The notes below the pieces were generated by a model. That model had not been told where the DNA came from. It ran no database searches and saw nothing but the letters and a program-made list of their open reading frames with translations. A DNA stretch of 64,000 nt. Origin: Trypanosoma brucei (lineage: Eukaryota). Position 1 is the first letter of the stretch. Each line of letters opens with the position of its first letter. This document shows positions 38,545 through 56,055 of the stretch, in pieces. The stretch is taken from assembly GCA_000002445.1 (NCBI GenBank), contig CP000071.1, positions 2,208,001-2,272,000 of the forward strand, in the 5' to 3' direction. A program made the position numbers and the translations under genes.

Positions 38545-41500
38545 ATGGGGGCTGTGCCCAGCCGTGAGTCCTTGGGGCGCGGACTGTGCCAAATACCAGA
38601 TTATGGGCAGAAGCACAAAATGGTGCTCATTCCCTTAACGAGAGAGTTCTTCCCGTCACCCGACTGTTTGCTCTTACGGCAGCTCTTTGAGGCGCGGAGG
38701 GATCCGTTTGTCCATTACTATCACACATTCGATGAGGGGTTTGCTAAGGCGCAAGCGCCAGATCCTGCTGTGGACGCTGACGCCGCAAAACTTTATGATC
38801 TCCAGGGTCTTGTTGCTCCATCAACCAGCGCCTCCGCTACCGCCCATCTCGTTGAGGGCAAGGCATGGCGTGCTGATGACTTTGTGCCTTTTAGCTGTAC
38901 ACTGGAAGAGTTCTACGACTCGTATGTGTGCCGTATGGGCGAGCGCCGCATATACGATACAGATGAACAGATGCTCAGGTTGTGCACGCGGGACCCGAAC
39001 GCGATCCGCCCTGTGCCGTGCGCGGTAGCGTTTGCTTATAACTCTGCCCCCACGCCCTCCGTACTCGGTAATAAAGAGGCGCTTGGTGGGGAGGTCATGT
39101 TGCGTGAGGATGGTAGTAATAGTGAACTGGGTAACAGCGGTGGGGAAAGTAGAGCTGAGGTAGGGGATGCAAAGGGCAGTACGCTAGAGGAAAGCAGCAT
39201 GCTTTTTGGATTGTACGTGCGTATCGTTGGTTTCGTTGGTGGTGTGAGTGACATCTGCCCGCATGGTTGTAACGATGTGTTGCTGGAGGATACGTTTCAA
39301 CTACAAGTGTTTCTTAACAAGTCGGTTGGAGACCACAACTTTGTACACGCCTTCATAACGGCCGTTTATACCTATGTAAGGCAATGGCGTGAGGCAGCGG
39401 TGATGCACATAGGGAGTATTGAGGACCAAAGGCAACCGACGGGACGTGGCTCGGTTGAGGTAGGGGAAGGGGGACATTCTAAGGTTTCCTCCACTATGAG
39501 TGGCGAGAAGCCGTTGATGACACCTCCTGCTGCGTCTGTTGTTATTGCATGCAAGCGGACCAACGTTCCAATGCTATGTTTCCAGCGGGGGTTGCGAGCG
39601 ATGCTATCACGACTCCTAGGCATTGTGGAGTCCGAGGGGATAAGTAACCCCGGAGGGCCGTGTTGTTGTCGGTGCCGCAGAAAAAATGATTGTATTCTTC
39701 AGACGCATAAATTAGCAGCTGGGGTTCCGTTGGGTACGCCACAAGACGGCGATACCAAAGTTGTCAGCGAATGTTCTTCTGCTCCTTCTTTGGAAAAAAC
39801 TACCATGTTGGAGAATGTCTTTGACATGTGGTTGAATGGCGACGTAGTGTTTGCATGTATTCCAAAGCAAATTGTAGCACGTGCTTTGGAATGTGTTGGG
39901 ATGCGCATGGGTTGCCCAGAGTGCATAATGGACATTGTGCGACCAAAACGTACTGAAACGCGGGCGGGCTGTAACACGGAAGTGAGGACGGCGCAGTCTA
40001 ATCCCCATGTCGGAGTGGCCCGGGATGTGTGCTCGCTGCACTCAACTGCCGATGCTTTTTGCCCACAAGATGCCGTTAACGCATTGGCTACCACTGCCGC
40101 TAAGGGTTCCTCCTCAAAAGGCTATGGGGGCGGTCTCAAAGTGTGCGACTCTGAGGCCGCTGCCACTGAACTACCTGCACATCAAAAGCTGCATGACGTA
40201 TTGGGCGAGACTGTGGTTGTGGAGGAATGGCCAGTGGATGGGATCGATCTGGTCAGCTTTACGAACGCCAAGGGGGATACCATCGACCGCCCGGCGCACT
40301 TGTATTGGGTAGTTGGGCGTTCAGTGACTGCCCAAGAAACCGCAGCCTCTGCCTTTTTCTCATGGTGGGCTGGTGGGAGGCTAACGGTTATGGGAGGAGG
40401 ATGTGACGTGTCGAACGAAAGTGAGCACGAAAGAAGCAACAGTGGGAAGGGGAAAGTGGATGAACGCTTGTCGGTCGGAGAGTTGCTTTACCTCAATATG
40501 AACCCATGCCAGTCAAATGCGATGCGTCAGTGGGTTCTTCAGCGTACCACGCTCCCACTGGAGGAGCTTTTGCTATCTGAACTACATGACAGCTGCAAGC
40601 TGGCACGACAGGCGCCGGTTGATGCAGAGAACTGGCTGCGCCATACTGACATCAGCGGCCCACGAGAGCGTGACAGGTCTCTACTGCTACCGCTAGGTGC
40701 TGAGGATACCAATGGGGAAGACTTGTCAGAGTTTGCTGTTGGTGTAAGACAACTTGTTGGCGAAGGTTCGCTTTGTTTGTGGCGGGTGACACTCGTGACA
40801 GGTGCAGTGCGCGCTATAGCGGTCACACCGCACTTTCTTCGCCCGCCACGGAAAAAGCGGGCGCGCAGAAAGCCAACCCGGCGCCCGTATGCTCCGGAGC
40901 AGGCTAATGCAACATCGACGGCGGTGGATGGGGCTGCACCGGTCAACAGCTTTGGGCCCTCAGCGGAGACGCAGGCATCCAAGGGCAGAAGAGCAACGAG
41001 GTCAAAGATGGTAACAAGACGGTCGGTACCATTACCAACAGCTGTCGTATCGGAAGGTGTGCTAAGGAGCGACGAACGGTCCGCCATGTCGCCATCGTTG
41101 AGCCAAGGGCTCTGCAGGGAGGGCGGAGTCCCTCCGATGGCTCCTCCTAACACCACGCCTTCTGTGGGTTTTGGTCGTGTGCGGACTCGGCAGCAGCCTT
41201 GCTGCTACGGAAACCCTGCGCTGGCTTCCCATATGGAGGTGCCTGCATTTCCCCAAGGTCAACAATCCGGTTTTGTTGCTTTCAACCAGCCAGTTGTCGA
41301 TTCTAGTCATTCCCCCGTTTCTGATGCAAGCTATGCAAATAGGCGTACGTCGACTCCTTTTCTGAGCCGCCGAACTTCAAGGGAGGATCAACTTGGGTTT
41401 ATGCCTTACGACAGTTACAATGTTTCGCGCCGCATAAGCAGTGACGTAACAAGCCAACGCTTATCTACGGCTTCCTTCACCCATTTCCCTCGTTGGGACG

Positions 41501-41859
41501 GGTGTGGAACCATCTGGCCCTACACAGGTTCGGAGGAACGGCCGAGTGTTACACGGCATTCGTCAGCGGTGGGAGGTGGGTGCACTCCCTTTTTTCAGCC
41601 GGCAGATGGATGGTCAAATTCCATGCACTCACGTTCTGGCACCCGCGAGGACTTTCACCCTTCCTGTGCCCTCCACCGGACCGGCGGAGGTTTCAGCAGC
41701 AGCGGCGGCTGCAGCAGTGAAAGTGTTGCAGGTTGTGCCCGCACTCAATTCGACTTCATTTCTGCGTCTGGACTTGGAACTGATGAGGTGTACGCCGATG
41801 GGGCGGAGGTGAGAACCCCAACACTTAATGTAACGGTGCGGCGTGGCCTGCAACACTGA
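38545..41859 (+). CDS. Large hypothetical protein, member 1 of an unrecognised MGAxPSRE N-terminal-domain family (1104 aa)
   Basis: Long plus-strand ORF behind a CT-rich tract. The N-terminus MGAVPSRE fits the N-myristoylation consensus (G2, S6, R7). It shares conserved blocks with the ORFs at 44048 and 53587 (VLIPLTREFFPSPDC, YDTDEQM, PVPCAVAFAY, VRIVGFVGG, NVPMLCFQRGLRAMLSRLLG). The C-terminal half is Ser/Pro/Arg-rich and low in complexity. Confidence 0.8.
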   Translation: MGAVPSRESLGRGLCQIPDYGQKHKMVLIPLTREFFPSPDCLLLRQLFEARRDPFVHYYHTFDEGFAKAQAPDPAVDADAAKLYDLQGLVAPSTSASATAHLVEGKAWRADDFVPFSCTLEEFYDSYVCRMGERRIYDTDEQMLRLCTRDPNAIRPVPCAVAFAYNSAPTPSVLGNKEALGGEVMLREDGSNSELGNSGGESRAEVGDAKGSTLEESSMLFGLYVRIVGFVGGVSDICPHGCNDVLLEDTFQLQVFLNKSVGDHNFVHAFITAVYTYVRQWREAAVMHIGSIEDQRQPTGRGSVEVGEGGHSKVSSTMSGEKPLMTPPAASVVIACKRTNVPMLCFQRGLRAMLSRLLGIVESEGISNPGGPCCCRCRRKNDCILQTHKLAAGVPLGTPQDGDTKVVSECSSAPSLEKTTMLENVFDMWLNGDVVFACIPKQIVARALECVGMRMGCPECIMDIVRPKRTETRAGCNTEVRTAQSNPHVGVARDVCSLHSTADAFCPQDAVNALATTAAKGSSSKGYGGGLKVCDSEAAATELPAHQKLHDVLGETVVVEEWPVDGIDLVSFTNAKGDTIDRPAHLYWVVGRSVTAQETAASAFFSWWAGGRLTVMGGGCDVSNESEHERSNSGKGKVDERLSVGELLYLNMNPCQSNAMRQWVLQRTTLPLEELLLSELHDSCKLARQAPVDAENWLRHTDISGPRERDRSLLLPLGAEDTNGEDLSEFAVGVRQLVGEGSLCLWRVTLVTGAVRAIAVTPHFLRPPRKKRARRKPTRRPYAPEQANATSTAVDGAAPVNSFGPSAETQASKGRRATRSKMVTRRSVPLPTAVVSEGVLRSDERSAMSPSLSQGLCREGGVPPMAPPNTTPSVGFGRVRTRQQPCCYGNPALASHMEVPAFPQGQQSGFVAFNQPVVDSSHSPVSDASYANRRTSTPFLSRRTSREDQLGFMPYDSYNVSRRISSDVTSQRLSTASFTHFPRWDGCGTIWPYTGSEERPSVTRHSSAVGGGCTPFFQPADGWSNSMHSRSGTREDFHPSCALHRTGGGFSSSGGCSSESVAGCARTQFDFISASGLGTDEVYADGAEVRTPTLNVTVRRGLQH

Positions 41860-44047: not shown

Positions 44048-46747
44048 ATGGGTGCTGCTCCAAGCAGGGAGACACTACGACGGGGGCTATACAACGTGCC
44101 AACACAGATGAAGAATAATGTTGACAGCTCCCGATCTCAAAGCAAACCAGACATTGTACTTATTCCGCTCATTAAAGAATATTTTCCATCGGCCGACTGC
44201 CCGCTGTTCGTGCAGTTTCACAAGATGCGGTGTGATCCGGGTGTGAATTATTACTTCCGCCACCCTCTGTACCCGGGTGATTTGAGCCGCATTCCCAACG
44301 TGCATAGCAATGATGCCAGGTCTTCTAACCGATCGAGAGATGCACTGTATTCTGAATTTGTGGAGCAGACAGAGGAGAGACTCTTTGATACAGATAATGA
44401 GATGCGACAGGCACATGAGCTTTCCATGAGTGACAGGTCTGCCGGTGGATCCCCTTCCTTCCATATGGAGGGGGCGAAAACAGCAAACGTTGGGAAAAAA
44501 GTTCTTCCGATCATATGCGCAGTGGCTTTTCTCCACGATCGCGAGAAGTTTGAACAACTTCAACAGACTCAGGGGACTCCGGGGGGTAGCAGGGTGCCAC
44601 ATGTTTTGATGGGGAAGGAAAACTCGGATATTCTTGAAGGAAAGGTTGTCAACATCATCGGTTTCTTTGGTATGTTACCAAGGGAGATAGAGCGGAAACC
44701 GTTGACATCTCCGGTAATCTTCAGTCCCGTAAGTCCCGGATTAAGTGCGACCGGAAAAGGCATTGCGGCACCAAGTATGTTGAAAAATTCTCTTTCTCTG
44801 CCATGTACAGCTAGGGGGCCCAGCCATGGTTCCTCGCAAGACCTTCAGCAACTGATTGCACCGCTCTCTTCACAGGCTTCAGTGGCTAGTGGGAACGAAC
44901 TTCGCAACCGTCCCAGCTTTGTACCTACGCCGCACGTGCCACCTGAACGATGCCCGTTGACAGCATCCGCTGGTGCCTTTTCACTGGTGTCCTCTCTCGG
45001 CGGGACGCCAGCTCGGGAACCGTCGGCGAGACAGCGACCCTTCTTGCAGTCAGAAGGTTTGTTACGGGAAATGGACCAGGCGTTGTCTTACCGTTGCACT
45101 GCGTTGGAGGAGAGGCTTAGCCGGTTTGGTTTGCCGGCACCTGCGGCGCCGGAGCCGCTTACAGCTGTTGTTTTTATGACCAAGTCTGCGGGAGAGCAAA
45201 ACCTGTGTCGGGTGACTTTTGTGGCCGCCAAGACTTATCATGGCCAGCTGGTTGAGGCTGGGGTACTAAAGCAGCGTGGAAATGGCCCTTCACCACCGCT
45301 GGAATCCGAAAGGCGGTATCTCCCACCTTTGGAAACATTTAGTTTTTCATCGCTGATGACAAACGTACCGTTTATTTCATTCGTGTACGAAATGCGTTGT
45401 CGCTGGGGACGCTTTGGGTTTTTCTCTCGACGTGTGGACTCACCGTCCTTACGGATGGGTTCTCTGAATGCTTCCTCCAGTTTTACTTACGGCTTTACGG
45501 GAGGCGCACATTCAGAGGCACCGAATCCGGAAGAGACACACAGGGGCTTCGCCATGTGGCTGACAAAAAACGGTGTGTTCCATGGCCGAATCGAAAGAGA
45601 ACTGGCGGAACATCTTTGTTTTTGCATGGCAGAACAGCCCGACTTCATGTCAGTCCCAGCTGCAACACTTCCAATAGGTGGGGGTTACTGGCGGTTCCGT
45701 GGCCTTGTTGACCGTAACAACCCACGACCTATTCAGCTTTGTGGCGACGGTGCTGAAGCGGCGGACCCGCTTGATGTGTATGTCATGGGTTCCCCAGCGG
45801 TTGGTGGTTTTGACGAGGGTGATGTTTTGAAATATGACCAAACGAGCCGTTCGTGGGTGGCCAACCGGGACATCCCACTCGATGCTGTTGTCCTTGCGGC
45901 AATGCGGCCATTTTGCAAGGCTGCGCGCACAGCTCCACCCGATGACATCGGGTGGGTGACTATTGAGGTGGAAGAGCAAGACGAGATGGGGGTTGAAGAC
46001 CAGGATCATCTTGAGACGGCGGGAAAGAGGGATATGGATACCGGGGCAGTTGTTCGTCAAGAGGACCGTGATGGTACTGTGGTGAGAAAACGAGTCCACG
46101 TTCGTGAAGGGAATTTCTATATCTATCGTTTTGAGCTGAATGGTGAGGTGCATTACCACGGTACTGTGCCAGATTTCGCGAATCCCAACAAAAAGAGGGC
46201 ATCGCACAGCAGTTCTGTCGGGGCGAGGAGTGTAGCTCCCATGGGGCCAGCGGTTGTCGCACGGCGTTTTGATAATACGAACGAAAGGGGCCGTCAACAT
46301 TCTGTTGGATTAACAGCAGACCGCAGCACCAACGAGCACTCATTGTCTGTGACTTCAACGTTTTCCCCCCCCTTTGTTGAGAGTTTTATGGGGAGCGAAA
46401 GGACGAGTGCAACGTTCCTAGCAAGCCCTCTCCAGCCCGTAAGGGAGGCCATCAGTCGCTCGGTGGGGACGGTCTCGTATTCTAATCGGGGCTATGAGTC
46501 GACCGGGAGCCAGTCCTCTTTTCCTGTTGTGCCTGTGACCCCAGATACGATGTTTCCTCCATCGAGAGGGCTGACAACGCCGGTGGCGCGTCGCAGGTCG
46601 ACATTTGTGCCAGTTGGCTCGGAGGTCGAAGTGGATGAGTCGCAACGGGACACGAATGAATCGGACGGAGGGCCAACAGCATTTGTCAGGCGCTTCATAG
46701 ACTCAACGGTTTATATATGGGACTGGAGATATTGCGCAGATAGATAA
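44048..46747 (+). CDS. Large hypothetical protein, member 2 of the MGAxPSRE family (899 aa)
   Basis: N-terminus MGAAPSRETLRRGLYNVP...IVLIPLIKEYFPSADCPLF. Further blocks shared with the other two members: FDTDNEMR, LPIICAVAFLHD, VNIIGFFGMLP, NVPFISFVYEMRCRWGRFG. Confidence 0.8.
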   Translation: MGAAPSRETLRRGLYNVPTQMKNNVDSSRSQSKPDIVLIPLIKEYFPSADCPLFVQFHKMRCDPGVNYYFRHPLYPGDLSRIPNVHSNDARSSNRSRDALYSEFVEQTEERLFDTDNEMRQAHELSMSDRSAGGSPSFHMEGAKTANVGKKVLPIICAVAFLHDREKFEQLQQTQGTPGGSRVPHVLMGKENSDILEGKVVNIIGFFGMLPREIERKPLTSPVIFSPVSPGLSATGKGIAAPSMLKNSLSLPCTARGPSHGSSQDLQQLIAPLSSQASVASGNELRNRPSFVPTPHVPPERCPLTASAGAFSLVSSLGGTPAREPSARQRPFLQSEGLLREMDQALSYRCTALEERLSRFGLPAPAAPEPLTAVVFMTKSAGEQNLCRVTFVAAKTYHGQLVEAGVLKQRGNGPSPPLESERRYLPPLETFSFSSLMTNVPFISFVYEMRCRWGRFGFFSRRVDSPSLRMGSLNASSSFTYGFTGGAHSEAPNPEETHRGFAMWLTKNGVFHGRIERELAEHLCFCMAEQPDFMSVPAATLPIGGGYWRFRGLVDRNNPRPIQLCGDGAEAADPLDVYVMGSPAVGGFDEGDVLKYDQTSRSWVANRDIPLDAVVLAAMRPFCKAARTAPPDDIGWVTIEVEEQDEMGVEDQDHLETAGKRDMDTGAVVRQEDRDGTVVRKRVHVREGNFYIYRFELNGEVHYHGTVPDFANPNKKRASHSSSVGARSVAPMGPAVVARRFDNTNERGRQHSVGLTADRSTNEHSLSVTSTFSPPFVESFMGSERTSATFLASPLQPVREAISRSVGTVSYSNRGYESTGSQSSFPVVPVTPDTMFPPSRGLTTPVARRRSTFVPVGSEVEVDESQRDTNESDGGPTAFVRRFIDSTVYIWDWRYCADR

Positions 46748-48928
46748 AGTTGAGGATGTGTAGCTAGGGGAACAGGCACCCGAAGAATAAATAGGTTAGT
46801 AGCACGTTTTATATATCTTTTTATATCTTTTTGTCTTTTTTTCGTTTTATTACCATGGCCATTATTTTCTTAAGCTATTATGTGTAAAACTTTGTGTTTG
46901 CATTCTTCGTGGTAATGGTCCCCTTGCTTTTTCTTTTCCAAAGCTGCTCTTAATTTAATGTGATATTTGTGCTGCCGACTTTTCTGTAGATAAGTATCCG
47001 CTTACTTCGGGTAAAAGATGTGGGCACTAAACAACTTATTTCTAATTCCACGCTGCTTCTTTGCTAGGCGGGTGCGCTCCACAAATTGAAGCTTTTGCGT
47101 TCCGTGAGGGGTTGGTCAAAATTTCACAAATGGTATTCAAAAAAAAAAATGACGTGACACTCGTACAATGCATTAGGTTGATGCCATATCCTTTTCCGTA
47201 TCCGTATTTTGAAACGCTAAGGTGCTGTTGCTTTATGGGATGGACTCACTCACGTAGTTGTATCATTTGCATTTCCCCCTTTTAACCACCATTTTTTCTT
47301 TCTTTAAATGCCTTAGCTCTCCCAACATTTTATTTAACTGACCGTTTTTGCTTTGATTTTGACTATTGGATGACACAGTTCCGTTTCTCACCAGCCCCTG
47401 CAGCGGGTATGCTCGCTTGCTAAGACCAAACATTTTTACCTTCATGCCCCCCAATATTGTTCTCTTTGATCGTAGCCGAAACCATCCTTATTTTTCTTCT
47501 CTCGCCCCTCTCTCAATCTTTTTTCGGTTCGCTTTAGTGCTGGTAACGAACACCTCCATTTTAGCAGAGCACACGCGCAAGAGCGCATGGATCAATAATC
47601 TGTTGGTGCGGGTTGTTTCCCGTGTTCATTTTTTTCGGTGTCATGGGGGAGTATTGGGGAGGCAGCCTATGATATTCCCGAAGCTGGTGGTGTTTACACG
47701 CTGTGCGCTGGCGAATGATCATTCTTATTGTTGTTTTCAAACAACCTAACAAAAAAGACAGGAAAACGGAGGTTGTATCTTGGCGTGCGGTTTAAGCAGT
47801 CTTTGAGGCGAGGGACAGGGGGTAGGGTGTTGCTCATGCAGTAGACATTGCTTGTTTCAATGCTCAAAACATTCCTAGAAGGCTATGTTGAATTAATTAC
47901 GGTCCTGATGCGACTCTACGGAGGGCTGCACCTATCAGTGTTCGTTCCAACGAACGGTGGTAGTTGCGCTGTTCAGAACTGACCGGTGTCGAGGGACGAC
48001 CCCGAGTTCGTCCCCACTACTGCGCTTAGGGGGGACTCCATGAGAATAGCGTTGCGCCGTTCCAGTTTCAGCAAATGCTTAAAAGCCTCGGTATCCCTGT
48101 TTACAATCGGCGTGCTGTGCCACCCGAAGTCTGCAGCGTATCTCTGAATTGAGTGGACTCGAGCCAATATGACGCTTTCAGGGTCGAGTGCACGCGGAGG
48201 CTTCCTCATTCCCATCCACAGTATGGTCGGGAATCATTTCGCGTGCCGAACAAAAAGTCGTTTGTGTTTTATATCCTTGTTATACTCAACCCACTCCACG
48301 GGTGTTGCGCTGCTGGTCCTTGATTGCGCCTATTTACACCATACTTTACCTGGGAATTCGGGTTTGTTGCTTATGCTTTGTGATGCCGGGAGTTTGCCAA
48401 GGTGTTTCCCACCGCCTTGCTTCGACCTCATTGCGTCGGAGGTGATGGAGGTTGTAGCAAGAGTCAGTATCTCCGTGCATGCAGGTGCCACGAAAGGCGT
48501 TTTTTTTTGTCTACGGACCCTCGCGCGATGTTACCACGTGCGATGTGCAACCCCATTCTGTCACCCATCTAGAAAAAGGATACTGGCGTTCTCGCTGGTA
48601 AGGGGAAGACCCTTTGGTTTGTCGCACGAGTTCTCCGCGTGACCGAGTTGCTTCGGGCAAGAGGGCAATGCAGTTTCGACGTGGGCACCCTAAAGGTATC
48701 GTCTTTGACCCTTCTCATGCGGGGCGGAACCCCAACGGGTCTTGGGCTTTTGAAGTTATCACTCGAATGTGCACGGCTTGTAAGCTGACGGTTGGTGCTA
48801 CCGCCATCGATCAGCCTGTTTTATACGCATTACCTAAGGAAGGGACTTACTGTGATTCAACAGCGCAACGCCCTTTCGGTTCGGCTAAGGACCCAGCGTT
48901 CTCCTTACCTTCCGTATATTAAGATATT

Positions 48929-50632
48929 TTGTTTTTTCGATATAAGAAGGACATGCAGTTTTGTGGCGGGCTTGTTTGCCGCACACCACCACGACGATTT
49001 GCATGGAAGCAAACTTACAGCCAACTTCTACCATCACACTCCATGGTTCCCTCTGCGTACATATGCGGGCGTTTGCGCCAAGCGCACCACTACTCCGGTC
49101 GATTTGCTTGTAGCGCTGCTTCTGTTGTGGTAGAGAGTCCCTCTGATGGAGCTGGGATCCTCACTTTCACAGCCAACACAGTTGATGGCGCTGCGCGTGC
49201 GCTCAGCGAAATAATGCATGAAGCTCAGGCGCTTTCTCATTCTGTGGAACTTCGCGCGTTGGAGCGCCTGGAGGCCATCCTAAGGCAAAACGCTGACTTA
49301 CTGGCATTAGCGGAGGCCCTTGCTACGGGAATATGTTTGCGTGAAGCTCGGAACTCGATTGGGTTGGCGGCAAACGTCGTCGGAAGTTGTGCGGAACGTC
49401 TGCGTGGGTGCCCCGCCTCGGTCGCCGCCAGCGAGACCATTGATGTGGAGGACTTACTTCGTTCGTTGGGCTGCAGTGACAGGGGTATCAACTGTCACGG
49501 TATCAGGTGTGCAACTGGCGGAGGTTCCTCGGTAGCGCTGTGCTACACATCGGCCAATTACCCCCTTCAGAGAGGTGTTGAGGCTATCGCCGCCGCTCTT
49601 TTGCGAGGTCATGTGGTCGTCTGGCTGCCATCACTTGAAGCACCGCTCTCCGCGTTGTGGCTTATGCAGTTGCTTTGCCGCTCTTTCAGCTGCCAAGCTG
49701 ACGAAAACGACAGTCGGAGTGCCACTAGTGATGACAAGGGCTGCGATCCGGGCGTTGGTATGCATACCGTGGACCCTATAAATATCATTTTGTATCGCGG
49801 TGAAAACTCAATTTTACTTGAAAAGGCTTTCGGCGTACGAGGCGCCCGTGAAGGCTTGGAGCTAGTAGGGTTGACGAACGGCTTTACAGAAGGCCAAACA
49901 AACCAGTTTTCCGTCCACTTGTCGGATAGCCAAGTGAGACGTTCGGATATTAGCGCCTTGTACGCCATTGATTGGCACCATCGGTTGACTAAACCTGCGG
50001 TTGCCATTGTTAGTGTTTCCCAAGGGGAATCACAGTCATTTTCACCTTCTATCCCATTGACGGCATGCGCGGCAGTGGCGAAAACAGATTCAGCGCCTAC
50101 ACACGTGGAATGTGTAGCTGAAAATTTCTTTCATCACGCCTTTCACTGCAATGGGAGAACACTGCACCCACTTCACGTGGCGTTCATTCCCCACGAGGAT
50201 GTGCTACCGATACTCCGTTACCTTCGGGAGCGCATACGACAGGTGCGCATTGGGCACAGTCTTGACAGCAGTGTTGAGCTTGGCCCGCTTCCCACTTCTA
50301 AACACCTCTCTTTGGTGAAGGAACTTATTGAGTCTGCTACTAGCGGTGACGATGATGCTGGGGTCTGTATTCAACAGGTGTGCGGCGGGTTCGAGGTAGC
50401 GATGCCTGCAGGTTTTTTTTGCCTTCCCTGTGTGCTGTATGCCCGGCTGCCGAATGAAGCACCAGGTGCAGTTTCTTCGATGGTTGAACGAGTCATGAAG
50501 CTGCGCACGGAGTTGGATGAATTGGGAGGTGGTCCTGTAGCTCTTGTGTGCGCCTATGACCTTCGGCACCAGTTAGATGAGTTACACGTATGGAAGGACA
50601 ACGCGCAACATTATGTTGTGCATGACTGGTGA
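48929..50632 (+). CDS. Divergent aldehyde dehydrogenase (ALDH) superfamily-like protein, possibly catalytically degenerate (567 aa)
   Basis: Blocks follow the ALDH fold in order: RALERLEAILRQNADLLALAEALATG (like ALDH R..L.KLADLIE.N.DELA.LE.LD.GK), ANYPLQRGVEAIAAALLRGHVVVWLPSLEAPLSALWL (like WNFPL..A.WK.APALAAGN.VVLKP.E.TPLTAL), a VGxxxD-like block VRIGHSLDSSVELGPL, and a C-terminal ELGGGPV (like E.FGPV). The canonical ELGGKSP glutamate site appears replaced (VSVSQGESQ); a Cys is retained in AFHCNGR. The basic, Arg-rich N-terminus suggests an organellar presequence. Confidence 0.55.
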   Translation: MFFRYKKDMQFCGGLVCRTPPRRFAWKQTYSQLLPSHSMVPSAYICGRLRQAHHYSGRFACSAASVVVESPSDGAGILTFTANTVDGAARALSEIMHEAQALSHSVELRALERLEAILRQNADLLALAEALATGICLREARNSIGLAANVVGSCAERLRGCPASVAASETIDVEDLLRSLGCSDRGINCHGIRCATGGGSSVALCYTSANYPLQRGVEAIAAALLRGHVVVWLPSLEAPLSALWLMQLLCRSFSCQADENDSRSATSDDKGCDPGVGMHTVDPINIILYRGENSILLEKAFGVRGAREGLELVGLTNGFTEGQTNQFSVHLSDSQVRRSDISALYAIDWHHRLTKPAVAIVSVSQGESQSFSPSIPLTACAAVAKTDSAPTHVECVAENFFHHAFHCNGRTLHPLHVAFIPHEDVLPILRYLRERIRQVRIGHSLDSSVELGPLPTSKHLSLVKELIESATSGDDDAGVCIQQVCGGFEVAMPAGFFCLPCVLYARLPNEAPGAVSSMVERVMKLRTELDELGGGPVALVCAYDLRHQLDELHVWKDNAQHYVVHDW

Positions 50633-52460
50633 GTGCGCGGCGATATATTTGAGGAATAGGTGGGGACGTGAGCAGATGCCACATTAAGTGTTGCGTGGTA
50701 TGCCAAGTTAAATCGTACAGCTGCCGTGGAAATTAGGAGAAGAAAGTGCCGCAATACGCATTTGGTGTTAACAGTGAAACCGTGTATATGCTTGTGTGTG
50801 TGTGTGTGTGGAATTGGTGATACGGAAAGGAAATGTGCCAACAGTTCGGCGGCCAAAAAGCGGTACGATAACCTTTGTCCAGTACGCGCAGTCTGTGTTA
50901 CGTCGCGGAAGTGGAGTTTCTTTGTGCCATGGCTTGCCGTTATTGCTATTGTTATTACTGTTATTATTATTATTATCATCATCATCGGTATTAATCCATC
51001 TATTTATTTCCTGTCTGATGTTATGCCTCGAGCCATACCGCAATTCCCGCATCCTCTTTACTGTTTGCCTTCTTCATCTTTCTTTCCTCTGAAAGGGGCA
51101 CCGTGGCGAAGAAACGGCAAAAAGCGAGAAGGAAGAGGGAATAATAGGGAAGCAAAATCATTTGGGGTACTTGGAACAAGAGAAGGAGAGAGCAGAAAAC
51201 GAAAAAAAAAATAGAAATAGAAAAAAGGACTCCAAAGGGGACGTTGTGCGCGTGTAGGTGCCCAGCCGAAGACAAGCAACTATTAAGCAAGCAAACAAGC
51301 AAGCAAGTGAAGAAGAGCAAGAGGAGACGAGAGAATAATACGTTAAGTGGCAGTTAGTTGTACGTATACGCACATATTTATATATATACATATACATTTA
51401 AGTACACATATAAAGTGAGGAAACAGAATAGGGTGGAGTGCATCTGTAAAAGTCCCATCCCCGTTGTTTAGTGCACACGCAAACTTTCAAAACGGACAAA
51501 CGCGCGTTTCCGTGTGAAGAGGCCATTCTATTGCTGACACGTCTCCGCGTAGCACCTGTGCCGTCGTTTTGAATATTCGTCTGTTTTTTTTCCTTCGTTT
51601 TCTTGATAAAAGAAAATCACATATAGTTAAATTTGACTTTTGCTGATTTAAATTTTTTTTTTTTAAAGAAAAGAAAAGCGGTGTGGAATATACGTTGTTG
51701 CGGGAGGGGAAAGAAGAGACGGGAGGAAACAAAACCAGAGGTGTGGAAGCATCGAGTTCTATAACGGGAATAATATTAAATCATAGGGGGGGGGTTGAAA
51801 ACACGCAAACAGACAGGAAAAAGAAAACAACAATAACGAGAGGGGGAGTCCTGACGACGCACTGACAAGAAGTATCAAATCAGTATAGTTTTTCTTTTTT
51901 CTTTTTTCTTTTGCATCTTTCAACGACACCAGAAAAAGGGGAATAAATAAATTGTAAACTTCTTTCTGTACGCGTACTACATACGTATATACATACATAT
52001 ACATATTTATACATAGGAAAAAAATTTCGTTTCTTTTTTTTTTTTCTTTAAATTTTCGTCCACCAATCGCTCCTCTGCTTTAAACAAAACGGGACAAGGT
52101 AATAAAACAAGAGTAAAATAAATTCAAGGAAAGTAAGAGAGTCGTTTACTTTGTAACTTTTTGCTCTCTTTGCATTTGCATTTGCATTTTTCTCCTCTTT
52201 TTTGTTTTTCTCCTTTGTAATTTTATCTTTCATTATTAAAATCATAATTGTCACCATTTTCTACCGCCCGTCTTTCTGTTTCTGCTTTGCTCTTCGCGTG
52301 GATTCATTTTTTCTTTGTCACTAACTCCCTCAACTACAGTGTGTTACTTTAACACAAACCTAGCGGTTGTGCGTGTGTGCGTGTGTGTGTGTGTTTTAAA
52401 TCTTAGATAACCCTCATTGTCATTTTTTTTGATTTATATTTTGCCACCGCAGAGTCCGTG

Positions 52461-52665
52461 GAAGTAAAAGAGAGGAATAACAAAAACGATAAATAATAGG
52501 GAAAAAAAGAAGGGGAAAGGAGAGAAAAAGGTAAAAAAGGGAGAAAAAGGCGTGACAGTAGTTGTGGTTGGAGGGGGACCCCGAATAGAAAAAAAAAAGG
52601 AAGGAAGAAAAAAAAAAGAGGGAAAAGGACGGAGAGAGAAAGAGGGATCCGGGGACGGCGCAATT
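52461..52665 (+). repeat. Polypurine (GA-rich) tract of ~200 nt on the plus strand
   Basis: agaggaataacaaaaacgataaataatagggaaaaaaagaaggggaaaggagagaaaaaggtaaaaaagggagaaaaagg... Confidence 0.85.
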
Positions 52666-53557
52666 ATATAAAAAGATATACAACACACACGTGCTATCGC
52701 TTCTTTGTTCTGTGGTTTATACAAACACATTCACATCCGTATTAGTTTTCTTATTAATATATCGTGCCGCGCCACACATTTCTTGTGCAGACATATATAT
52801 TTATACACATTTGTTTTTATATAAAAGGTGAGGAATTGAAGGAGTTTTTTTTTCTTTGCGCCATCGATCTATTCGCTTTCACCACAAGTCGCCACCGTCA
52901 TTGCGCCATTAATTTACTACTCGCGGTTATTCCATCAAGGGTGGAAAGGGAGGGATTGACAGGAGATAAATAAAGCAATTCAAACCTTTTTTTTTTCTAA
53001 AAAAAGTGAGAGAAGGAAAAAAAAAGAAGAAAGTGACGGGGTGAAAACAAGTAAATCCAATAATATAAGGAGGTATAGTTATAAATAAATAAATATATAT
53101 TGGGGGAGGCGTACAAGTTAGAATATAAAGGTATTTCCAAGTAGCTTACTCTTGACATCAGTTGTTTTAATAATAATAATAATAGCATTGACTTTAGGGT
53201 TCTTGTTGACCATTTTTTTTTAAAAGGAAAACAAAATCGTTCTGCTTTTTTTTTTCCGTTTGACTAAAAACCTTTCCCTACATTGTGGAGCGGGTGCCGT
53301 TTTTTCAGTGTCTTTTTTCTTTGTAATTTGATCAGTTGAGATCGGGGAGGAGTGGGGTTAAGGGTTAGGGGTTTGTTGGATTTTTGTCTTTTTTTTTCCT
53401 TGAGAAGAGACCCAAGTAAAGAAGGAGGAAAAAAAAAGACAGATTTGTAAAGAGAGGAATTTAGAACGGAAGGGACCCAACAGAGATAAAGAGGAGAGGA
53501 GAGGAGAGGTGTGTGTGGTAGTTCCTTTTTTTTTCTTTACATTAATTTTTTCGTGAG

Positions 53558-53580
53558 GTGTGTGTGTGTGTGTGTGTGTG
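53558..53580 (+). repeat. (TG)n microsatellite directly abutting a start codon
   Basis: gtgtgtgtgtgtgtgtgtgtg ends 6 nt before the MGALPSRE ATG at 53587. The repeat contains an in-frame upstream ATG at 53560. Confidence 0.95.
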
Positions 53581-53586: not shown

Positions 53587-56055
53587 ATGGGAGCACTGCC
53601 GAGCAGGGAAACACAACACCGCGGTTTGTATAGCCATCGTCATGGGCGCAATAGGCGGAGTGAAGTTATTTTAGTTCCTCTTACCAGTGAGTTCTTTCCG
53701 AGTGAGAGCTGCCCTCTTTTTACGCATTTATTCCAGGCGAAGCACCACCGCACCGCCAAATATTACTATCGAGCAACACGCCCCGCCGACACGGATTGGG
53801 AATCCGATTATTATTGTCAAACGACCGCCCACGTCCGTAATATCAACATAACTGATTCAGATGATTCCGCAAAGGTCGGACACTTTGAGACATTCTTCAC
53901 GGATGATATCTCAGGACTATATCACAGACTCGTGCGCGAGACCGAGTACTGCATGTGTGAAACGGATGAGGAGCTTCGGACACGATACGAAGAGCAGATC
54001 CGCCAGCAACAGCACCATCAGCGAAAGCAGCGACTGCAAAGACCGGAGAAATCAAGCGATTATGGGACTGCTGGTGGCCGCTCGTACGAGGAATATTTTG
54101 GATTTGCTTCCGGCGCTTACACCAGTGGCTACACTGATGCTTTGGCCTTCATGAAGGGAAGGGAGCAGCACACGCACCGCAATGCGTGTGGTACGCATGT
54201 AACTTCATCGAGTGCCTATTACCTTCGTCCTATTCCATGTGCAATTGTGTCGCGGTCCGAGGCACACAAATCTGCATCTGAGACTGGGGTTGAGTTCCTT
54301 GGTTCAACGGTTAAGGTGCTCGGTATGTTTGGGCTTCTTCCCTCCATAATCCCAGTGACTGTGCATGGCGAAGTGATGGAGCAGCATATGCTGAAGGCCA
54401 CAATGTTCGTTGACAAGGATGTCGGCGACCAGATATTGGGTAACGTAGTGATGCTTGCTGTCCACATGTACGTCCGACAATGTATTGAGGCCCGTATCCG
54501 AGCTCCATACATTCCAATGGTTCCCATGATTCTTCGGACACCCATATCAAACATCCCGATGCTACAGTTTGTGCGGGAGATGCGAGTGCGTCTTCGTGGC
54601 TTGTTGGAAGCCGGTGCACCGCGCCGGGGCGGAGGAGCGGGAAGGCGTGTGGGTTCATTCCACGGCACTGAGGGAACTCGCGAGGCGGTGGAGGCATCTT
54701 CCCGTTGTGAGGCAGATATACTGTACCTTTTTGAAGAGGATGTACCCAATGCCATTTCTGCCCACCAACTTTTCCTTGATCCGGCGGAGGCACAGTCACT
54801 AAGGCTCCACCCGGCACAGAACACCAATTCTGATGGTACCATTCCGATTCTCCTCATGTCGGGCGTGAATGTGCAGGCGGCACCACTAACACATCCCTCC
54901 GTTACGAGTATGTCACATGTGCGCGTCCCGCCGTGGGCGCTTGAAGGCGCCTCCGACTCTGCAGGCGGTGGACCATCCGAAGCGTCCCCGCAGCGTGAAG
55001 CCTTCCAGGCCACGTCGCTTTTGGCAACACGACGGAACCGCTTCCGCATTTGGGTGGAAGGTGGTCGGCTGTGCATTTGGGCGAGTGCCGCGTACGCTCG
55101 GCGGGGGTGTCTTATGCTCGCTCAGAAGCTTACACAGACGGTTGACAATAATCTTTTGCCAGTACCACGCCCGTGGAATTACCGTGGTCTTTTGCGCGGT
55201 GGTATGCCAATGCCGGAGCCAGAGCTCGCCAATGATGTGTTCATTGTGGCTGAGGACATGCCGAGTATGGGGCTTTATCAGGGTGACGTTCTCCGTTGCA
55301 GCACTCCCGTGGAGATCGCTGATCAGCAACAACGGCTGTCACTGCACGGAACATCCGCAACATCTTCGTCCACGTTACTCGAGGCGATATGTGTGCACAG
55401 CAAGAAAAGTGTGACCAGCGCCTCCACACCTATGGAACCGACGACACCCGGTGGGCAGCAAAAAAGTCAGGAGAGTTTTGCAAGCAGTCACCCCACTAAT
55501 TTACTTCTACAGGATCCGGGCGAGGCCCCACCGAATGCCTTCTGGGTGTGCATTCCTTTCGACCGCGACTGTGTGAGTGCGGGACCTAATGAAAGACGGC
55601 AACAACAACATCAACTGGACACTGTGTCCCATCGGGCAACCAATGTGGAAGAGGTTCTTCTCTCGTGGATCAAAATAATTTCACTCAAGACCCGCGAAGC
55701 CAGTGAGGAGGATGTGTATTGGGTGCGTGACCCCACAACCGGAGCGCCACTCCGGGTGGATCGCTACGTTATACGCCGTGTGGAGCATGATGGCATGCGT
55801 TATTTCATTGGTGTCACCCCGCGCTTTGTTGGGCAACAGCGCCGATTGGAGAGAATGTTGGAAGACATCAAAGCTCAAGATGCGGGAAGTCCGGATTTGG
55901 ACGTGGAGCGGGAGGGGTTTCACATGTCGCCCACACACGCTGGCACAGCTTTGGAGGGTAATGATGACGACAGTGAAGACGATGATGCAGATGATGGATG
56001 CGCTGCCATGGCGCAGATGCTCAGCGGGCAGTCAAATATATTTTACAGGGAATAG
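53587..56055 (+). CDS. Large hypothetical protein, member 3 of the MGAxPSRE family (822 aa from the ATG at 53587)
   Basis: MGALPSRETQHRGLY...VILVPLTSEFFPSESCPLF. Shared blocks: CETDEELR, RPIPCAIVS, VKVLGMFGLLP, NIPMLQFVREMRVRLRGLL. Acidic C-terminus (DDDSEDDDADDG). The ORF-track start at 53560 lies inside the (TG)n tract and is judged spurious. Confidence 0.8.
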   Translation: MGALPSRETQHRGLYSHRHGRNRRSEVILVPLTSEFFPSESCPLFTHLFQAKHHRTAKYYYRATRPADTDWESDYYCQTTAHVRNINITDSDDSAKVGHFETFFTDDISGLYHRLVRETEYCMCETDEELRTRYEEQIRQQQHHQRKQRLQRPEKSSDYGTAGGRSYEEYFGFASGAYTSGYTDALAFMKGREQHTHRNACGTHVTSSSAYYLRPIPCAIVSRSEAHKSASETGVEFLGSTVKVLGMFGLLPSIIPVTVHGEVMEQHMLKATMFVDKDVGDQILGNVVMLAVHMYVRQCIEARIRAPYIPMVPMILRTPISNIPMLQFVREMRVRLRGLLEAGAPRRGGGAGRRVGSFHGTEGTREAVEASSRCEADILYLFEEDVPNAISAHQLFLDPAEAQSLRLHPAQNTNSDGTIPILLMSGVNVQAAPLTHPSVTSMSHVRVPPWALEGASDSAGGGPSEASPQREAFQATSLLATRRNRFRIWVEGGRLCIWASAAYARRGCLMLAQKLTQTVDNNLLPVPRPWNYRGLLRGGMPMPEPELANDVFIVAEDMPSMGLYQGDVLRCSTPVEIADQQQRLSLHGTSATSSSTLLEAICVHSKKSVTSASTPMEPTTPGGQQKSQESFASSHPTNLLLQDPGEAPPNAFWVCIPFDRDCVSAGPNERRQQQHQLDTVSHRATNVEEVLLSWIKIISLKTREASEEDVYWVRDPTTGAPLRVDRYVIRRVEHDGMRYFIGVTPRFVGQQRRLERMLEDIKAQDAGSPDLDVEREGFHMSPTHAGTALEGNDDDSEDDDADDGCAAMAQMLSGQSNIFYRE

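What the first reader, a model, noticed from the sequence alone, without database searches (positions are those of the whole stretch)
48929..50632. ALDH-fold protein with a degenerate catalytic glutamate site and an organelle-type presequence
The order of conserved ALDH blocks is recognisable (cofactor-binding N-domain motifs, PLxxGxE-like YPLQRGVEA, VGxxxD-like VRIGHSLDSSVELGPL, C-terminal ELGGGPV for E.FGPV). The position of the ELGGKSP general-base motif reads VSVSQGESQ, and the GQxC nucleophile motif reads AFHCNGR. This suggests a pseudo-enzyme, or a dehydrogenase with an unusual active site, perhaps mitochondrial given the N-terminus MFFRYKKDMQFCGGLVCRTPPRRFAWK. It lies between two members of the MGAxPSRE family.
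Basis: partly seen in the sequence, partly recalled or inferred. Interest (0 to 1): 0.5.

Follow-up and report, generated by a model that had tools for sequence, protein, structure and literature searches.

The report
Dead aldehyde-dehydrogenase homologue of trypanosomes
This Trypanosoma brucei gene (Tb927.8.7770) encodes a protein that keeps the aldehyde dehydrogenase fold but has lost the catalytic and cofactor-binding residues; it is conserved under selection in trypanosomatid parasites, while a free-living relative keeps an intact version, so it is a modestly interesting, unstudied pseudoenzyme that is probably mitochondrial.

Summary
The ORF is a real ALDH-superfamily homologue (Pfam PF00171 E=4.6e-17; hhalign against active ALDHs E=9e-38; predicted fold matches ALDH9A1 and BADH). 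The window is T. b. brucei TREU927 chromosome 8, and the gene is Tb927.8.7770 (UniProt Q57U66).

- **Start codon.** The real start is the ATG at 48953 (559 aa). The quoted "MFFRYKKD" is a bacterial-code TTG artefact.
- **Nucleophile slot.** Three of four alignments place it at Leu404 (NGRTL = GQxC), invariant in the genus. The flagged Cys lies four residues upstream and is Gly in the T. cruzi clade.
- **General-base slot.** It reads Arg344 (hhalign) or Ile352 (MAFFT), not VSVSQGESQ.

Lys192, Glu195, Gly245/Ser246 and Glu399 are also lost, and about 65 residues including the PFGG motif are deleted. The Asn169 slot varies within the genus.

The gene is not decaying: dN/dS is 0.38 between T. cruzi and T. 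c. marinkellei, peptides have been detected, and it is intact across the genus. A degenerate homologue exists in Phytomonas. The nearest intact relative is a Bodo saltans ALDH that shares the N-terminal motif.

Published TargetP and MitoFates calls are positive for a mitochondrial signal, but the ATOM40-dependence measurement was not significant.

Verdict: a probably mitochondrial pseudo-ALDH with an unknown non-catalytic role. It is a new member of a known kind and of moderate interest.

The parts
48953..50632 (+). Coding sequence of Tb927.8.7770 (559 aa plus stop), the ALDH-fold pseudoenzyme
   Evidence: The translation is identical to T. b. brucei TREU927 XP_847604.1 / Q57U66. The gene id comes from PMC5436138 Supplementary Data 4, which maps Q57U66 to Tb927.8.7770. 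Pfam PF00171 E=4.6e-17.
48929..48952 (+). GAC), probably 5' UTR
   Evidence: The ORF listing uses bacterial start codons. TAA lies in frame at 48920-48922, and the first ATG is at 48953. All annotated orthologues start at the equivalent Met.
48898..48923 (+). Candidate polypyrimidine tract plus AG (48922-48923) for trans-splicing; inference only
   Evidence: The sequence ttctccttaccttcc...taAG lies directly upstream of the ATG. No spliced-leader mapping data were available.
48953..49033 (+). N-terminal region (aa 1-27): a basic, acid-free leader followed by the clade-conserved motif RRFAWKQTYSQLLP
   Evidence: There are 4 R/K and no D/E in aa 1-30, and the first acidic residue is at aa 61. R15, W18, Y22, L26 and P27 are invariant in the genus. 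The motif [FV]xW[KRG]Q..[FYL].P is shared with the Bodo saltans ALDH and the other clade members. TargetP and MitoFates are positive per PMC5436138. pLDDT is 37 for aa 1-10 and 84-93 for aa 21-40, so any cleavable part is short.
49130..49147 (+). VESPSD block (aa 60-65), equivalent to the ALDH 'vxNPaTGe' strand
   Evidence: E61-D65 are invariant in the genus and align with VESPSD/VENPSE of the active relatives.
49553..49570 (+). ANYPLQ (aa 201-206): the slot of the oxyanion-hole Asn169 (N202)
   Evidence: Aligned to PFNYPLE. Within the genus the slot reads N/K/N/N/N/H, plus S in P0007. In the Phytomonas-like group it reads A/Y/P/Y/L/Y.
49616..49636 (+). VVWLPSL (aa 222-228): the slot of the cofactor-ribose ligands Lys192 (now L225) and Glu195 (now L228)
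   Evidence: Aligned to VVWKPPE/VVLKPAE. The K192 slot reads L/L/F/L/I/L and the E195 slot is L in all six Trypanosoma sequences examined.
49871..49894 (+). LTNGFTEG (aa 307-314): the slot of the FTGSxxxG cofactor loop (G245 is N309, S246 is G310)
   Evidence: and the table. N309 and G310 are invariant in the genus.
49973..49996 (+). WHHRLTKP (aa 341-348): the general-base region by hhalign (E268 slot is R344)
   Evidence: hhalign pairs R344-L-T-K-P with E-L-G-G-N. W341 and H343 are invariant in the genus. MAFFT instead pairs E268 with I352. Neither alignment gives an acidic residue.
50009..50035 (+).
   Evidence: The stretch is not conserved in the genus. pLDDT is below 50 for aa 357-381.
50138..50164 (+). 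AFHCNGRTL (aa 396-404): the nucleophile motif region; G401-R402-T403-L404 corresponds to G299-Q300-x-C302, with Leu404 (50162-50164) in the Cys slot
   Evidence: Searches agree. L404, G401, A396 and F397 are invariant in the genus. C399 is Gly in the T. cruzi clade.
50252..50266 (+). GHSLD (aa 434-438), part of a retained structural motif (VGxxLDPxxxxGPL)
   Evidence: G434, H435, S436, L437, D438, G444, P445 and L446 are invariant in the genus. G434, H435, L437, G444 and P445 stay invariant across the wider 21-sequence clade alignment.
50384..50419 (+). GGFEVAMPAGFF (aa 478-489), a retained structural motif of the catalytic domain (GGxxxxxxGyF)
50519..50539 (+). ELGGGPV (aa 523-529): a degenerate ExFGPV motif
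   Evidence: The E523 position reads E/G/R/R/R/P/R/R in the genus alignment. GGGP is invariant. MAFFT leaves the E399 column as a gap.
50540..50629 (+). Shortened C-terminus (aa 530-559): strand, helix, then a final strand VVHDW. About 65 residues present in active ALDHs are missing, including the PFGG motif.
   Evidence: A2 columns 920-1040 and the table. H557 and W559 are invariant and every Trypanosoma orthologue ends HxW. The model has strands at 529-535 and 555-558.
49406..49528 (+). Lineage-specific, poorly conserved insertion (aa 152-192) where canonical ALDHs have the oligomerisation hairpin
   Evidence: Low pLDDT at aa 156-162 and 177-190. Length and sequence vary.
49715..49777 (+). 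Lineage-specific acidic, Ser-rich insertion (aa 255-275), absent from the T. cruzi clade
   Evidence: pLDDT is below 50 at aa 263-269.

Best explanation
Tb927.8.7770 encodes a catalytically dead member of the aldehyde dehydrogenase superfamily.

**What is shown**
- It descends from a kinetoplastid-specific ALDH clade that carries an N-terminal leader. The Bodo saltans member of that clade (CUG69955.1) still has every catalytic and NAD-binding residue.
- In trypanosomatids (Trypanosoma, Phytomonas and unnamed relatives) the nucleophile Cys, the general-base Glu, the ribose-binding Lys/Glu, the GSxxxG loop and the ExF motif were replaced, and about 65 C-terminal residues were deleted.
- The structural core motifs were kept, and the gene is under purifying selection.

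**What is inferred**
- The protein cannot oxidise aldehydes and probably no longer binds NAD(P)+.
- It is imported into the mitochondrion by a short basic presequence.
- It acts non-catalytically, as a binding or scaffolding module. It probably still pairs through the retained, invariant C-terminal strand (...HxW) that mediates dimerisation in ALDHs.
- The partner or ligand is unknown.
For: **Homology and fold**
- Pfam E=4.6e-17. hhalign against 18 active ALDHs gives prob 99.95, E=9e-38 over aa 34-497.
- The AF2 model has pLDDT 77 and pTM 0.80. Its Foldseek top hits are ALDH9A1, AldC, BADH and SSADH, with E about 1e-20 and TM-scores of 0.52-0.59 (normalised to the query) and 0.61-0.68 (to the target).

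**Dead site**
- Slot table: C302 is L in 6/6 Trypanosoma; K192 is L/F/I; E195 is L; G245 is N; S246 is G; Q300 is R/K; R307 is V/A/I/L; E399 is a gap; the PFGG segment is absent. The E268 slot is R/H or I/V/M.
- The only nearby Cys is not conserved.

**Functional retention**
- Eight intact orthologues span the genus, with 118 invariant columns.
- dN/dS is 0.376 between T. cruzi and T. c. marinkellei. Sd=52.5 over 387 sites against Nd=63.5 over 1170 sites gives Z of about 4.4 (my arithmetic). Flanking genes give 0.25 and 0.37.
- Two peptides were detected in procyclic organelle fractions (PMC5436138 Supplementary Data 4).

**Origin**
- In a profile search of 1.84e9 representatives, the next-best hits after Trypanosoma are a small clade (E 1e-34 to 1e-16). 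It includes the intact Bodo saltans ALDH and Phytomonas CCW65625.1.
- In the NJ tree, Trypanosoma plus the Phytomonas-like group has 100% bootstrap. The whole clade with the Bodo group has 63%.
- The clade shares the N-terminal motif.

**Mitochondrial targeting**
- The leader is basic and acid-free across the clade.
- TargetP-positive, MitoFates-positive and a TriTrypDB mitochondrial annotation (PMC5436138 Supplementary Data 2).
Against: - No direct evidence exists for any non-catalytic function, partner or phenotype. No paper in the searchable library names the gene.
- Import is not demonstrated. The ATOM40-knockdown ratio was 0.757, p=0.27, from 2 peptides, and the protein is absent from the Panigrahi mitochondrial proteome column. 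It was not found in the TrypTag or hyperLOPIT supplements as held, some of which are truncated.
- The AF2 model was built from an alignment that includes active ALDHs, so the fold match is not independent of the sequence homology.
- The E268 register differs between alignment methods.
- Loss of NAD binding is inferred from residue identities and was not measured.
- The orthology of the Bodo protein rests on a moderate bootstrap (63%) and a shared motif.
Confidence: 0.75

Rival explanations
1. It is still an enzyme with a re-wired active site. In African trypanosomes, for example, Cys399 of AFHCNGR could act as nucleophile with a different base, or the fold could catalyse another reaction.
For: The single-sequence phmmer alignment to 4qyj pairs this Cys with the catalytic Cys. 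Cys is present at that position in T. brucei, T. congolense, T. vivax and T. theileri. N202 is retained in T. brucei. W341, H343 and N309 are invariant near the former active site.
Against: - The Cys is Gly in T. cruzi, T. c. marinkellei, T. rangeli and P0007, although the gene is under purifying selection there.
- Three profile or multiple alignments place the nucleophile slot on the invariant Leu404.
- The cofactor ligands K192, E195, G245, S246 and E399 are all lost, and the C-terminal part of the catalytic domain is deleted.
Confidence: 0.07
2. It is a decaying gene relic with no function: an ORF that happens still to be open.
For: The protein evolves fast: 40% identity between T. brucei and T. 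cruzi, and 12-13 amino-acid differences between T. brucei subspecies. It has variable insertions, low abundance (2 peptides) and no published phenotype.
Against: - Intact ORFs of similar length exist in all eight Trypanosoma lineages found, and homologues exist in Phytomonas and other trypanosomatid-like organisms.
- dN/dS of 0.38 is like that of the neighbouring genes and significantly below 1.
- There are long invariant blocks, such as PLSALWL, GHSLD, GGGP and the terminal HxW.
- The protein has been detected.
Confidence: 0.05
3. It is a dead ALDH as described, but it is not mitochondrial. The conserved N-terminal segment would then be part of the fold or an interaction motif rather than an import signal.
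For: - Residues 21-40 are modelled with high confidence as part of the body (pLDDT 84-93).
- The N-terminal motif is sequence-conserved, which is unusual for presequences.
- The ATOM40 knockdown effect is not significant.
- The protein is absent from the mitochondrial proteome column and was not found in the held spatial-proteomics supplements.
Against: - TargetP and MitoFates are both positive, and TriTrypDB carries a mitochondrial annotation.
- The first 10-17 residues are basic, acid-free and of low confidence in the model, like the short trypanosomatid presequences known from the literature (my knowledge).
- Other clade members start MFRR/MLRR/MFRK.
- Two of three replicate ratios fall on ATOM40 knockdown: 0.74, 1.05 and 0.56.
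Confidence: 0.2

Closest known systems
Bodo saltans NAD-dependent aldehyde dehydrogenase, putative (CUG69955.1, A0A0S4J061) and unnamed environmental relatives (P0015, P0017, P0022, P0023)
   Same: - They are the closest non-trypanosomatid relatives in a profile search of 1.84e9 representatives.
- They share the N-terminal [FV]xW[GKR]Q..[FL]VP motif and the VESPSD, VVW.P, GH(A/S)LDPS..GPL and GGF....P.G(Y/F)F blocks.
- They group with the trypanosomatid proteins in the NJ tree (63% bootstrap).
   Different: They keep NYPLE, VVWKPPE, FTGS...G, LELGGN, SGQSC, E.FGPV and the PFGG C-terminal segment, so they look catalytically competent. The trypanosomatid proteins have lost all of these.
Aminoaldehyde / betaine-aldehyde / 4-aminobutyraldehyde dehydrogenases (ALDH9/ALDH10-type; e.g. 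PDB 6vr6, 3iwk, 2wme)
   Same: They are the best structural matches of the model, the best solved-structure match of the intact Bodo relative (3iwk, E=7.6e-66) and the top NCBIfam models. They share the two-domain ALDH fold.
   Different: No NCBIfam model reaches its cut-off. The T. brucei protein scores 42 bits against a cut-off of 593, and even the active Bodo-type proteins stay below cut-off. The catalytic and cofactor residues and the C-terminal segment are missing.
Known non-catalytic ALDH-fold proteins: human ALDH16A1 and cephalopod/scallop Omega-crystallin (from my own knowledge, not tested here)
   Same: The ALDH fold is retained without the catalytic Cys and serves binding or structural roles. 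This shows that dead ALDHs can be maintained by selection.
   Different: They have independent origins in different ALDH families. ALDH16A1 is a longer two-ALDH-domain protein, and crystallins are abundant lens proteins. The present protein is low-abundance, kinetoplastid-specific, probably mitochondrial and C-terminally shortened. No direct comparison was run.

Membership tests
ALDH superfamily (Pfam PF00171), membership by homology and fold | Significant match to the family profile | tested here: met
   PF00171 E=4.6e-17, 62.2 bits against a gathering score of 23. hhalign E=9e-38.
ALDH superfamily (Pfam PF00171), membership by homology and fold | Cofactor-binding and catalytic alpha/beta domains plus a C-terminal oligomerisation strand | tested here: met
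   AF2 model with pLDDT 77 and pTM 0.80. All 50 listed Foldseek hits are ALDHs, with E about 1e-20 and TM-scores of 0.52-0.59 (query-normalised) and 0.61-0.68 (target-normalised). Caveats: the model's alignment included active ALDHs, and the oligomerisation hairpin region is of low confidence.
Catalytically competent NAD(P)+-dependent aldehyde dehydrogenases | Nucleophilic Cys (Cys302, GQxC motif) | tested here: not met
   The slot is Leu404, invariant in the genus. The nearby Cys399 is not conserved.
Catalytically competent NAD(P)+-dependent aldehyde dehydrogenases | General-base Glu (Glu268, ELGG motif) | tested here: not met
   R344 by hhalign or I352 by MAFFT. No conserved acidic residue lies in the region. 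G270 and G271 are also lost.
Catalytically competent NAD(P)+-dependent aldehyde dehydrogenases | Oxyanion-hole Asn (Asn169) | tested here: inconclusive
   Asn is present in T. brucei (N202). Elsewhere in the genus the slot is K, H or S, and it is A/Y/P/L in the Phytomonas-like group.
Catalytically competent NAD(P)+-dependent aldehyde dehydrogenases | Cofactor ligands: Lys192, Glu195, the Gly245-Ser246...Gly250 loop, Glu399/Phe401 | tested here: not met
   The slots read L225, L228 and N309-G310. The E399 column is a gap and the F401 slot is L. Actual NAD(P)+ binding cannot be tested with these tools.
Catalytically competent NAD(P)+-dependent aldehyde dehydrogenases | Complete catalytic domain including the C-terminal PFGG segment | tested here: not met
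   About 65 residues present in the active relatives are absent between the GPV strand and the last strand.
Mitochondrial presequence-bearing proteins of T. brucei | N-terminal basic, acid-free targeting signal recognised by predictors | tested here: met
   There are 4 R/K and no D/E in aa 1-30. TargetP and MitoFates are positive according to PMC5436138 Supplementary Data 2. I could not run the predictors myself.
Mitochondrial presequence-bearing proteins of T. brucei | Experimentally shown organellar localisation or ATOM40-dependent import | tested here: inconclusive
   Detected in the organelle-enriched fraction with 2 peptides. ATOM40-RNAi ratio 0.757, p=0.27. Not found in the held TrypTag or hyperLOPIT supplements.
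Known pseudo-ALDHs (ALDH16A1, Omega-crystallin) | Common descent with those proteins | not tested
   The nearest relatives found are kinetoplastid ALDHs, which argues for an independent origin. No direct comparison with ALDH16A1 or the crystallins was made.

The most novel reading that the evidence does not exclude
The dead ALDH fold may have been recruited, at or before the origin of parasitic trypanosomatids, as a dedicated non-catalytic subunit or assembly factor of a kinetoplastid-specific mitochondrial machine, for example in mitochondrial gene expression or kDNA maintenance. A partly degenerate metagenomic group has lost the Cys but keeps Lys192, Glu195 and Gly245. It may represent an intermediate, NAD(H)-binding stage of this step-wise conversion from enzyme to scaffold.
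Probability: 0.12. Interest if true: 0.6.

Novelty: new member of a known kind. Interest (0 to 1): 0.35.

Why it matters
Trypanosomatid mitochondria contain many proteins of unknown function. From my own knowledge, several characterised ones are enzyme folds re-used as structural parts.

This gene gives a clean, datable example of an enzyme turning into a pseudoenzyme. It is intact in the free-living Bodo saltans and dead but still under selection in the parasitic trypanosomatids examined, with possible intermediates in metagenomes.

It also corrects database labels such as 'aldehyde dehydrogenase family, putative'. Those labels would wrongly add an ALDH activity to metabolic reconstructions of T. 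brucei.

The finding is not a major surprise. Pseudo-ALDHs and dead-enzyme paralogues are known phenomena, and the function here remains unknown.

Tried and rejected
1. **Wrong gene id.** I first inferred Tb927.8.7810 from paralogue tables in PMC2212663. The UniProt mapping in PMC5436138 shows it is Tb927.8.7770.
2. **First AF2 run.** With only the eight Trypanosoma sequences the model was unusable (pLDDT 53). It was replaced by a 21-sequence alignment.
3. **Word-indexed search.** A search with the alignment of Phytomonas-like sequences returned only two of its own members, so whether Leishmania proper has an orthologue stays unresolved.
4. **Synteny of the P0014 contig.** Its neighbours are unrelated to the T. 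brucei neighbours. The downstream gene is a PRP1-type ABC transporter 41-44% identical to Leishmaniinae proteins. This places that organism among or near trypanosomatids but gives no synteny support.
5. **Literature.** No paper in the library names Tb927.8.7770, Tb08.6H23.40 or Q57U66 in its main text. The gene is absent from the held supplements of TrypTag, the structure-based annotation paper and hyperLOPIT.
6. **afdb50 fold search.** The library was not available.
7. **A subunit of a solved trypanosomatid complex.** Rejected, because neither the sequence nor the genus profile finds an identical or near-identical chain in the PDB sequence set.
8. **Rfam and tRNA scans of the window.** Both were empty.
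9. **Cys-on-Cys register.** The register was considered and rejected in favour of the register supported and by conservation.
Full report
**What the sequence is.** The window is Trypanosoma brucei DNA. The ORF at 48929-50632 (+) exists as described, but the tool that lists ORFs uses bacterial start codons. Codon 48929 is TTG and is preceded by an in-frame TAA at 48920. The first ATG is at 48953. From that ATG the 559-residue translation is identical to T. b. brucei TREU927 XP_847604.1 / UniProt Q57U66. It differs at one residue from the T. equiperdum protein and at 12-13 residues from T. b. gambiense and a second T. b. equiperdum strain. Supplementary Data 4 of Peikert et al. 2017 (PMC5436138) maps Q57U66 to Tb927.8.7770 (old id Tb08.6H23.40; 60.3 kDa; 'hypothetical protein, conserved'). 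The rest of the window fits chromosome 8. It holds an amino-acid-transporter array, a TLC-domain gene (dihydroceramide synthase Tb927.8.7730 in PMC5436138) and AATP11. The two flanking genes that begin MGAAPSRE and MGALPSRE are paralogues of each other (BLASTP E=6e-14).

**Is it an ALDH homologue?** Yes, well beyond chance.
- Pfam PF00171 matches at E=4.6e-17 (62 bits; gathering score 23).
- The single sequence finds PDB ALDHs at up to 3.7e-7, and a profile of the eight Trypanosoma orthologues finds them at up to 5.5e-14.
- hhalign of that profile against 18 active ALDHs gives probability 99.95 and E=9e-38 over residues 34-497.
- An AlphaFold2 model from the eight orthologues alone was poor (pLDDT 53). 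With 21 clade sequences it reached pLDDT 77 and pTM 0.80.
- All 50 listed Foldseek matches in the PDB are ALDHs (ALDH9A1, AldC, betaine-aldehyde, aminoaldehyde and succinate-semialdehyde dehydrogenases), with E about 1e-20 and TM-scores of 0.52-0.59 (normalised to the query) and 0.61-0.68 (to the target). That model's alignment contained active ALDHs, so I treat the fold match as corroboration, not as independent proof.

**Where the catalytic residues fall.** I used catalytically intact close relatives as a bridge (see below) and three independent alignments: hmmsearch of the genus profile against PDB chains, a 21-sequence MAFFT alignment and hhalign.
- All three align G401-R402-T403-L404 with G299-Q300-x-C302. 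The nucleophile slot therefore holds Leu404 (window 50162-50164), which is invariant in the genus.
It is Gly in T. cruzi, T. c. marinkellei, T. rangeli and a further Trypanosoma sequence.
- Only the single-sequence phmmer alignment pairs Cys with Cys, and it needs a compensating two-residue gap.
- For the general base, hhalign pairs E268 with R344 (WHHR-LTKP against QLE-LGGN), while MAFFT pairs it with I352. No acidic residue is conserved anywhere in this stretch.
- The slot-by-slot table shows further losses that are consistent across the genus: K192 to L/F/I; E195 to L; G245-S246 to N-G; Q300 to R/K; R307 to V/A/I/L; E399 to a gap (the candidate E523 reads E/G/R/P in the genus); F401 to L.
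- About 65 residues containing the PFGG motif are absent between the GPV strand and the last strand.
- Asn169 is present in T. brucei (N202) but is K, H or S in other species.
- The structural motifs are retained: G126, G219, P226, the VESPSD strand, GHSLD...GPL, GGF....PAGFF, GGGP and the last β-strand. That strand ends with an invariant H-x-W at the very C-terminus.

**Is it a relic or a maintained gene?** It is maintained.
- Intact orthologues of 516-583 residues exist in T. congolense, T. vivax, T. cruzi, T. c. marinkellei, T. theileri, T. rangeli and one unnamed Trypanosoma. They are 36-48% identical to the T. brucei protein and share 118 invariant columns.
- I fetched the T. cruzi and T. 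c. marinkellei genes and computed Nei-Gojobori rates: dS=0.150, dN=0.056, dN/dS=0.376. The two neighbouring genes give 0.25 and 0.37.
- From those counts, pS=0.136 and pN=0.054 differ by about 4.4 standard errors (my arithmetic).
- This test was done in the clade that lacks even the non-canonical Cys.
- The orthologue of the upstream T. brucei neighbour lies two genes upstream in T. cruzi, so synteny is partly conserved.
- The protein was detected by mass spectrometry in procyclic organelle-enriched fractions (2 peptides, 5.2% coverage).

**Where it came from.** A profile search of 1.84 billion representatives found only 29 proteins at E ≤ 1e-10. After the Trypanosoma orthologues comes a small set (E 1e-34 to 1e-16) that falls into three groups.
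- **(a) Intact proteins.** These carry NYPLE, VVWKPPE, FTGS, LELGGN, SGQSC, E.FGPV and PFGG. One of them is the Bodo saltans 'NAD-dependent aldehyde dehydrogenase, putative' CUG69955.1.
- **(b) Partly degenerate metagenomic proteins.** These keep K192, E195 and G245 but have T/I/F/R in the Cys slot and G or C in the Asn slot.
- **(c) Long, strongly degenerate proteins.** These share PSxxxxLSALWLM, GHSLD and VCGGF and the shortened C-terminus. One is from Phytomonas sp. EM1 (CCW65625.1). Another lies next to a PRP1-type ABC transporter whose best matches, at 41-44% identity, are Leishmaniinae proteins.

In a neighbour-joining tree, Trypanosoma plus group (c) has 100% bootstrap support. Long-branch effects cannot be excluded. 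The whole clade including the Bodo group has 63%. All groups share an N-terminal motif, [FV]-x-W-[GKR]-Q-x-[LYF]-x-x-[FYL]-[VL]-P, upstream of the first ALDH strand. Against bacterial family models the intact members are nearest to aminobutyraldehyde and betaine-aldehyde dehydrogenases but reach no cut-off. The T. brucei protein scores 42 bits against cut-offs above 500. The best solved relative of the Bodo protein is pea aminoaldehyde dehydrogenase 3iwk (E=7.6e-66).

The simplest reading is inference. A kinetoplastid ALDH that was active in the free-living bodonid lost catalysis in the trypanosomatid lineage, and group (b) is perhaps an intermediate stage.

**Localisation.** The corrected N-terminus (MQFCGGLVCRTPPRRFAWKQ...) has four basic and no acidic residues in its first 30 positions, and the first D/E is at residue 61. 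Other clade members start MFRR, MLRR or MFRK. In the model, residues 1-10 are disordered (pLDDT 37), while residues 21-40 pack on the body (pLDDT 84-93). Any cleavable signal must therefore be short, as is usual in trypanosomatids (my knowledge). Supplementary Data 2 of PMC5436138 lists Tb927.8.7770 in the mitochondrial reference set. The grounds are a TriTrypDB mitochondrial annotation and positive TargetP and MitoFates predictions. It is not in the Panigrahi/Mach mitochondrial proteome column. In the ATOM40-knockdown experiment its ratio was 0.757 (replicates 0.74, 1.05, 0.56; p=0.27), which is not significant. I rate mitochondrial localisation as likely (about 0.7-0.8) but not shown.

**How it most likely works.**
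- *Shown:* ALDH descent and fold; absence of the catalytic Cys and Glu and of most cofactor ligands; deletion of part of the catalytic domain; purifying selection; expression.
- *Inferred:* it cannot oxidise aldehydes and probably does not bind NAD(P)+. It works by binding rather than by catalysis, probably in the mitochondrial matrix. It may still dimerise through the retained and invariant C-terminal strand.
- *Positions constrained only in trypanosomatids:* W236 in LSALWLM in both Trypanosoma and the Phytomonas-like group, and W341/H343, N309 and the terminal HxW within Trypanosoma. These are candidates for the new interface.
- It is not a chain of any solved trypanosomatid complex in the PDB sequence set.
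- No paper in the searchable library mentions the gene.

**Rivals.**
- A re-wired active enzyme is unlikely (about 0.07). The only candidate Cys is dispensable in a clade where the gene is still under selection, and the cofactor site is gone.
- A functionless relic is unlikely (about 0.05), given dN/dS, the breadth of conservation and protein detection.
- A non-mitochondrial location remains possible (about 0.2).

**Comparison with what is known, and novelty.** By homology and fold the protein belongs to the ALDH superfamily. It fails four defining features of catalytically competent ALDHs: the Cys, the Glu, the cofactor ligands and the complete catalytic domain. A fifth, the Asn, is inconclusive. 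It should not be annotated as an aldehyde dehydrogenase. Dead ALDH-fold proteins are already known (ALDH16A1, Ω-crystallin; my knowledge), and dead-enzyme paralogues are common. This is therefore a new member of a known kind, not a new kind. Its value lies in three things: the clear contrast between a free-living and a parasitic lineage, the correction of a misleading annotation, and an unstudied, probably mitochondrial trypanosomatid protein. I score interest at 0.35.

Noticed in passing
window 44048-46747 (+), 53587-56055 (+), and weakly 38545-41859 (+): The 'MGAxPSRE' genes that flank the ALDH-like gene are true paralogues (BLASTP E=6e-14, about 28% identity in the N-terminal part). They start with an MGxxxS N-myristoylation-type motif and have no Pfam domain at E ≤ 10. 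From the gene order in PMC2212663 and PMC5436138 they are probably Tb927.8.7760 and Tb927.8.7780, which have chromosome-4 paralogues. The 1104-aa gene at 38545 shows weak similarity to the T. cruzi relatives. The listed GTG start at 53560 is a bacterial-code artefact, and the likely start is the ATG at 53587.
   Followed up: partly
window 49307-49309 (codon 119 of the ALDH-like gene): TREU927 has Leu at residue 119 (ADLLALAEAL). Every other Trypanosoma orthologue, including T. equiperdum and T. b. gambiense, has Ser at this otherwise invariant position. This is either a strain-specific substitution or a sequencing error.
   Followed up: partly
window 2304-10028 and 20058-23906 (+): Three tandem amino-acid transporter genes (Pfam Aa_trans, E 1e-45 to 1e-48), a TLC-domain gene (dihydroceramide synthase, Tb927.8.7730) and a further transporter (AATP11, Tb927.8.7740). 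This is the known chromosome-8 AAT array.
   Followed up: partly
window about 24000-38000: About 14 kb has no ORF of 250 aa or more on either strand. GC skew turns negative (24-34 kb) and a few 150-250 aa ORFs lie on the minus strand. This is unlike the rest of the + strand polycistron and might be degenerate or repetitive sequence, or a pseudogene region.
   Followed up: no
proteins P0024, P0026, P0027, P0028, P0046 (metagenome and SRA assemblies, not in the window): A partly degenerate ALDH group shares the clade's N-terminal LWGQ motif. It keeps Lys192, Glu195 and Gly245 but has T/R/I/F in the catalytic Cys slot and G or C in the Asn169 slot. It may be an intermediate stage of the enzyme-to-pseudoenzyme transition. 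The source organisms are unknown.
   Followed up: partly
window 50650-53560: The intergenic region downstream of the ALDH-like gene is long (about 2.9 kb) and of low complexity. It has (TG)n/(CA)n-type runs that translate as CVCVCV, and poly-pyrimidine and A/T-rich tracts. GC falls to about 0.39-0.45. This is typical of trypanosome UTR and intergenic sequence. No Rfam or tRNA hit was found anywhere in the window.
   Followed up: partly
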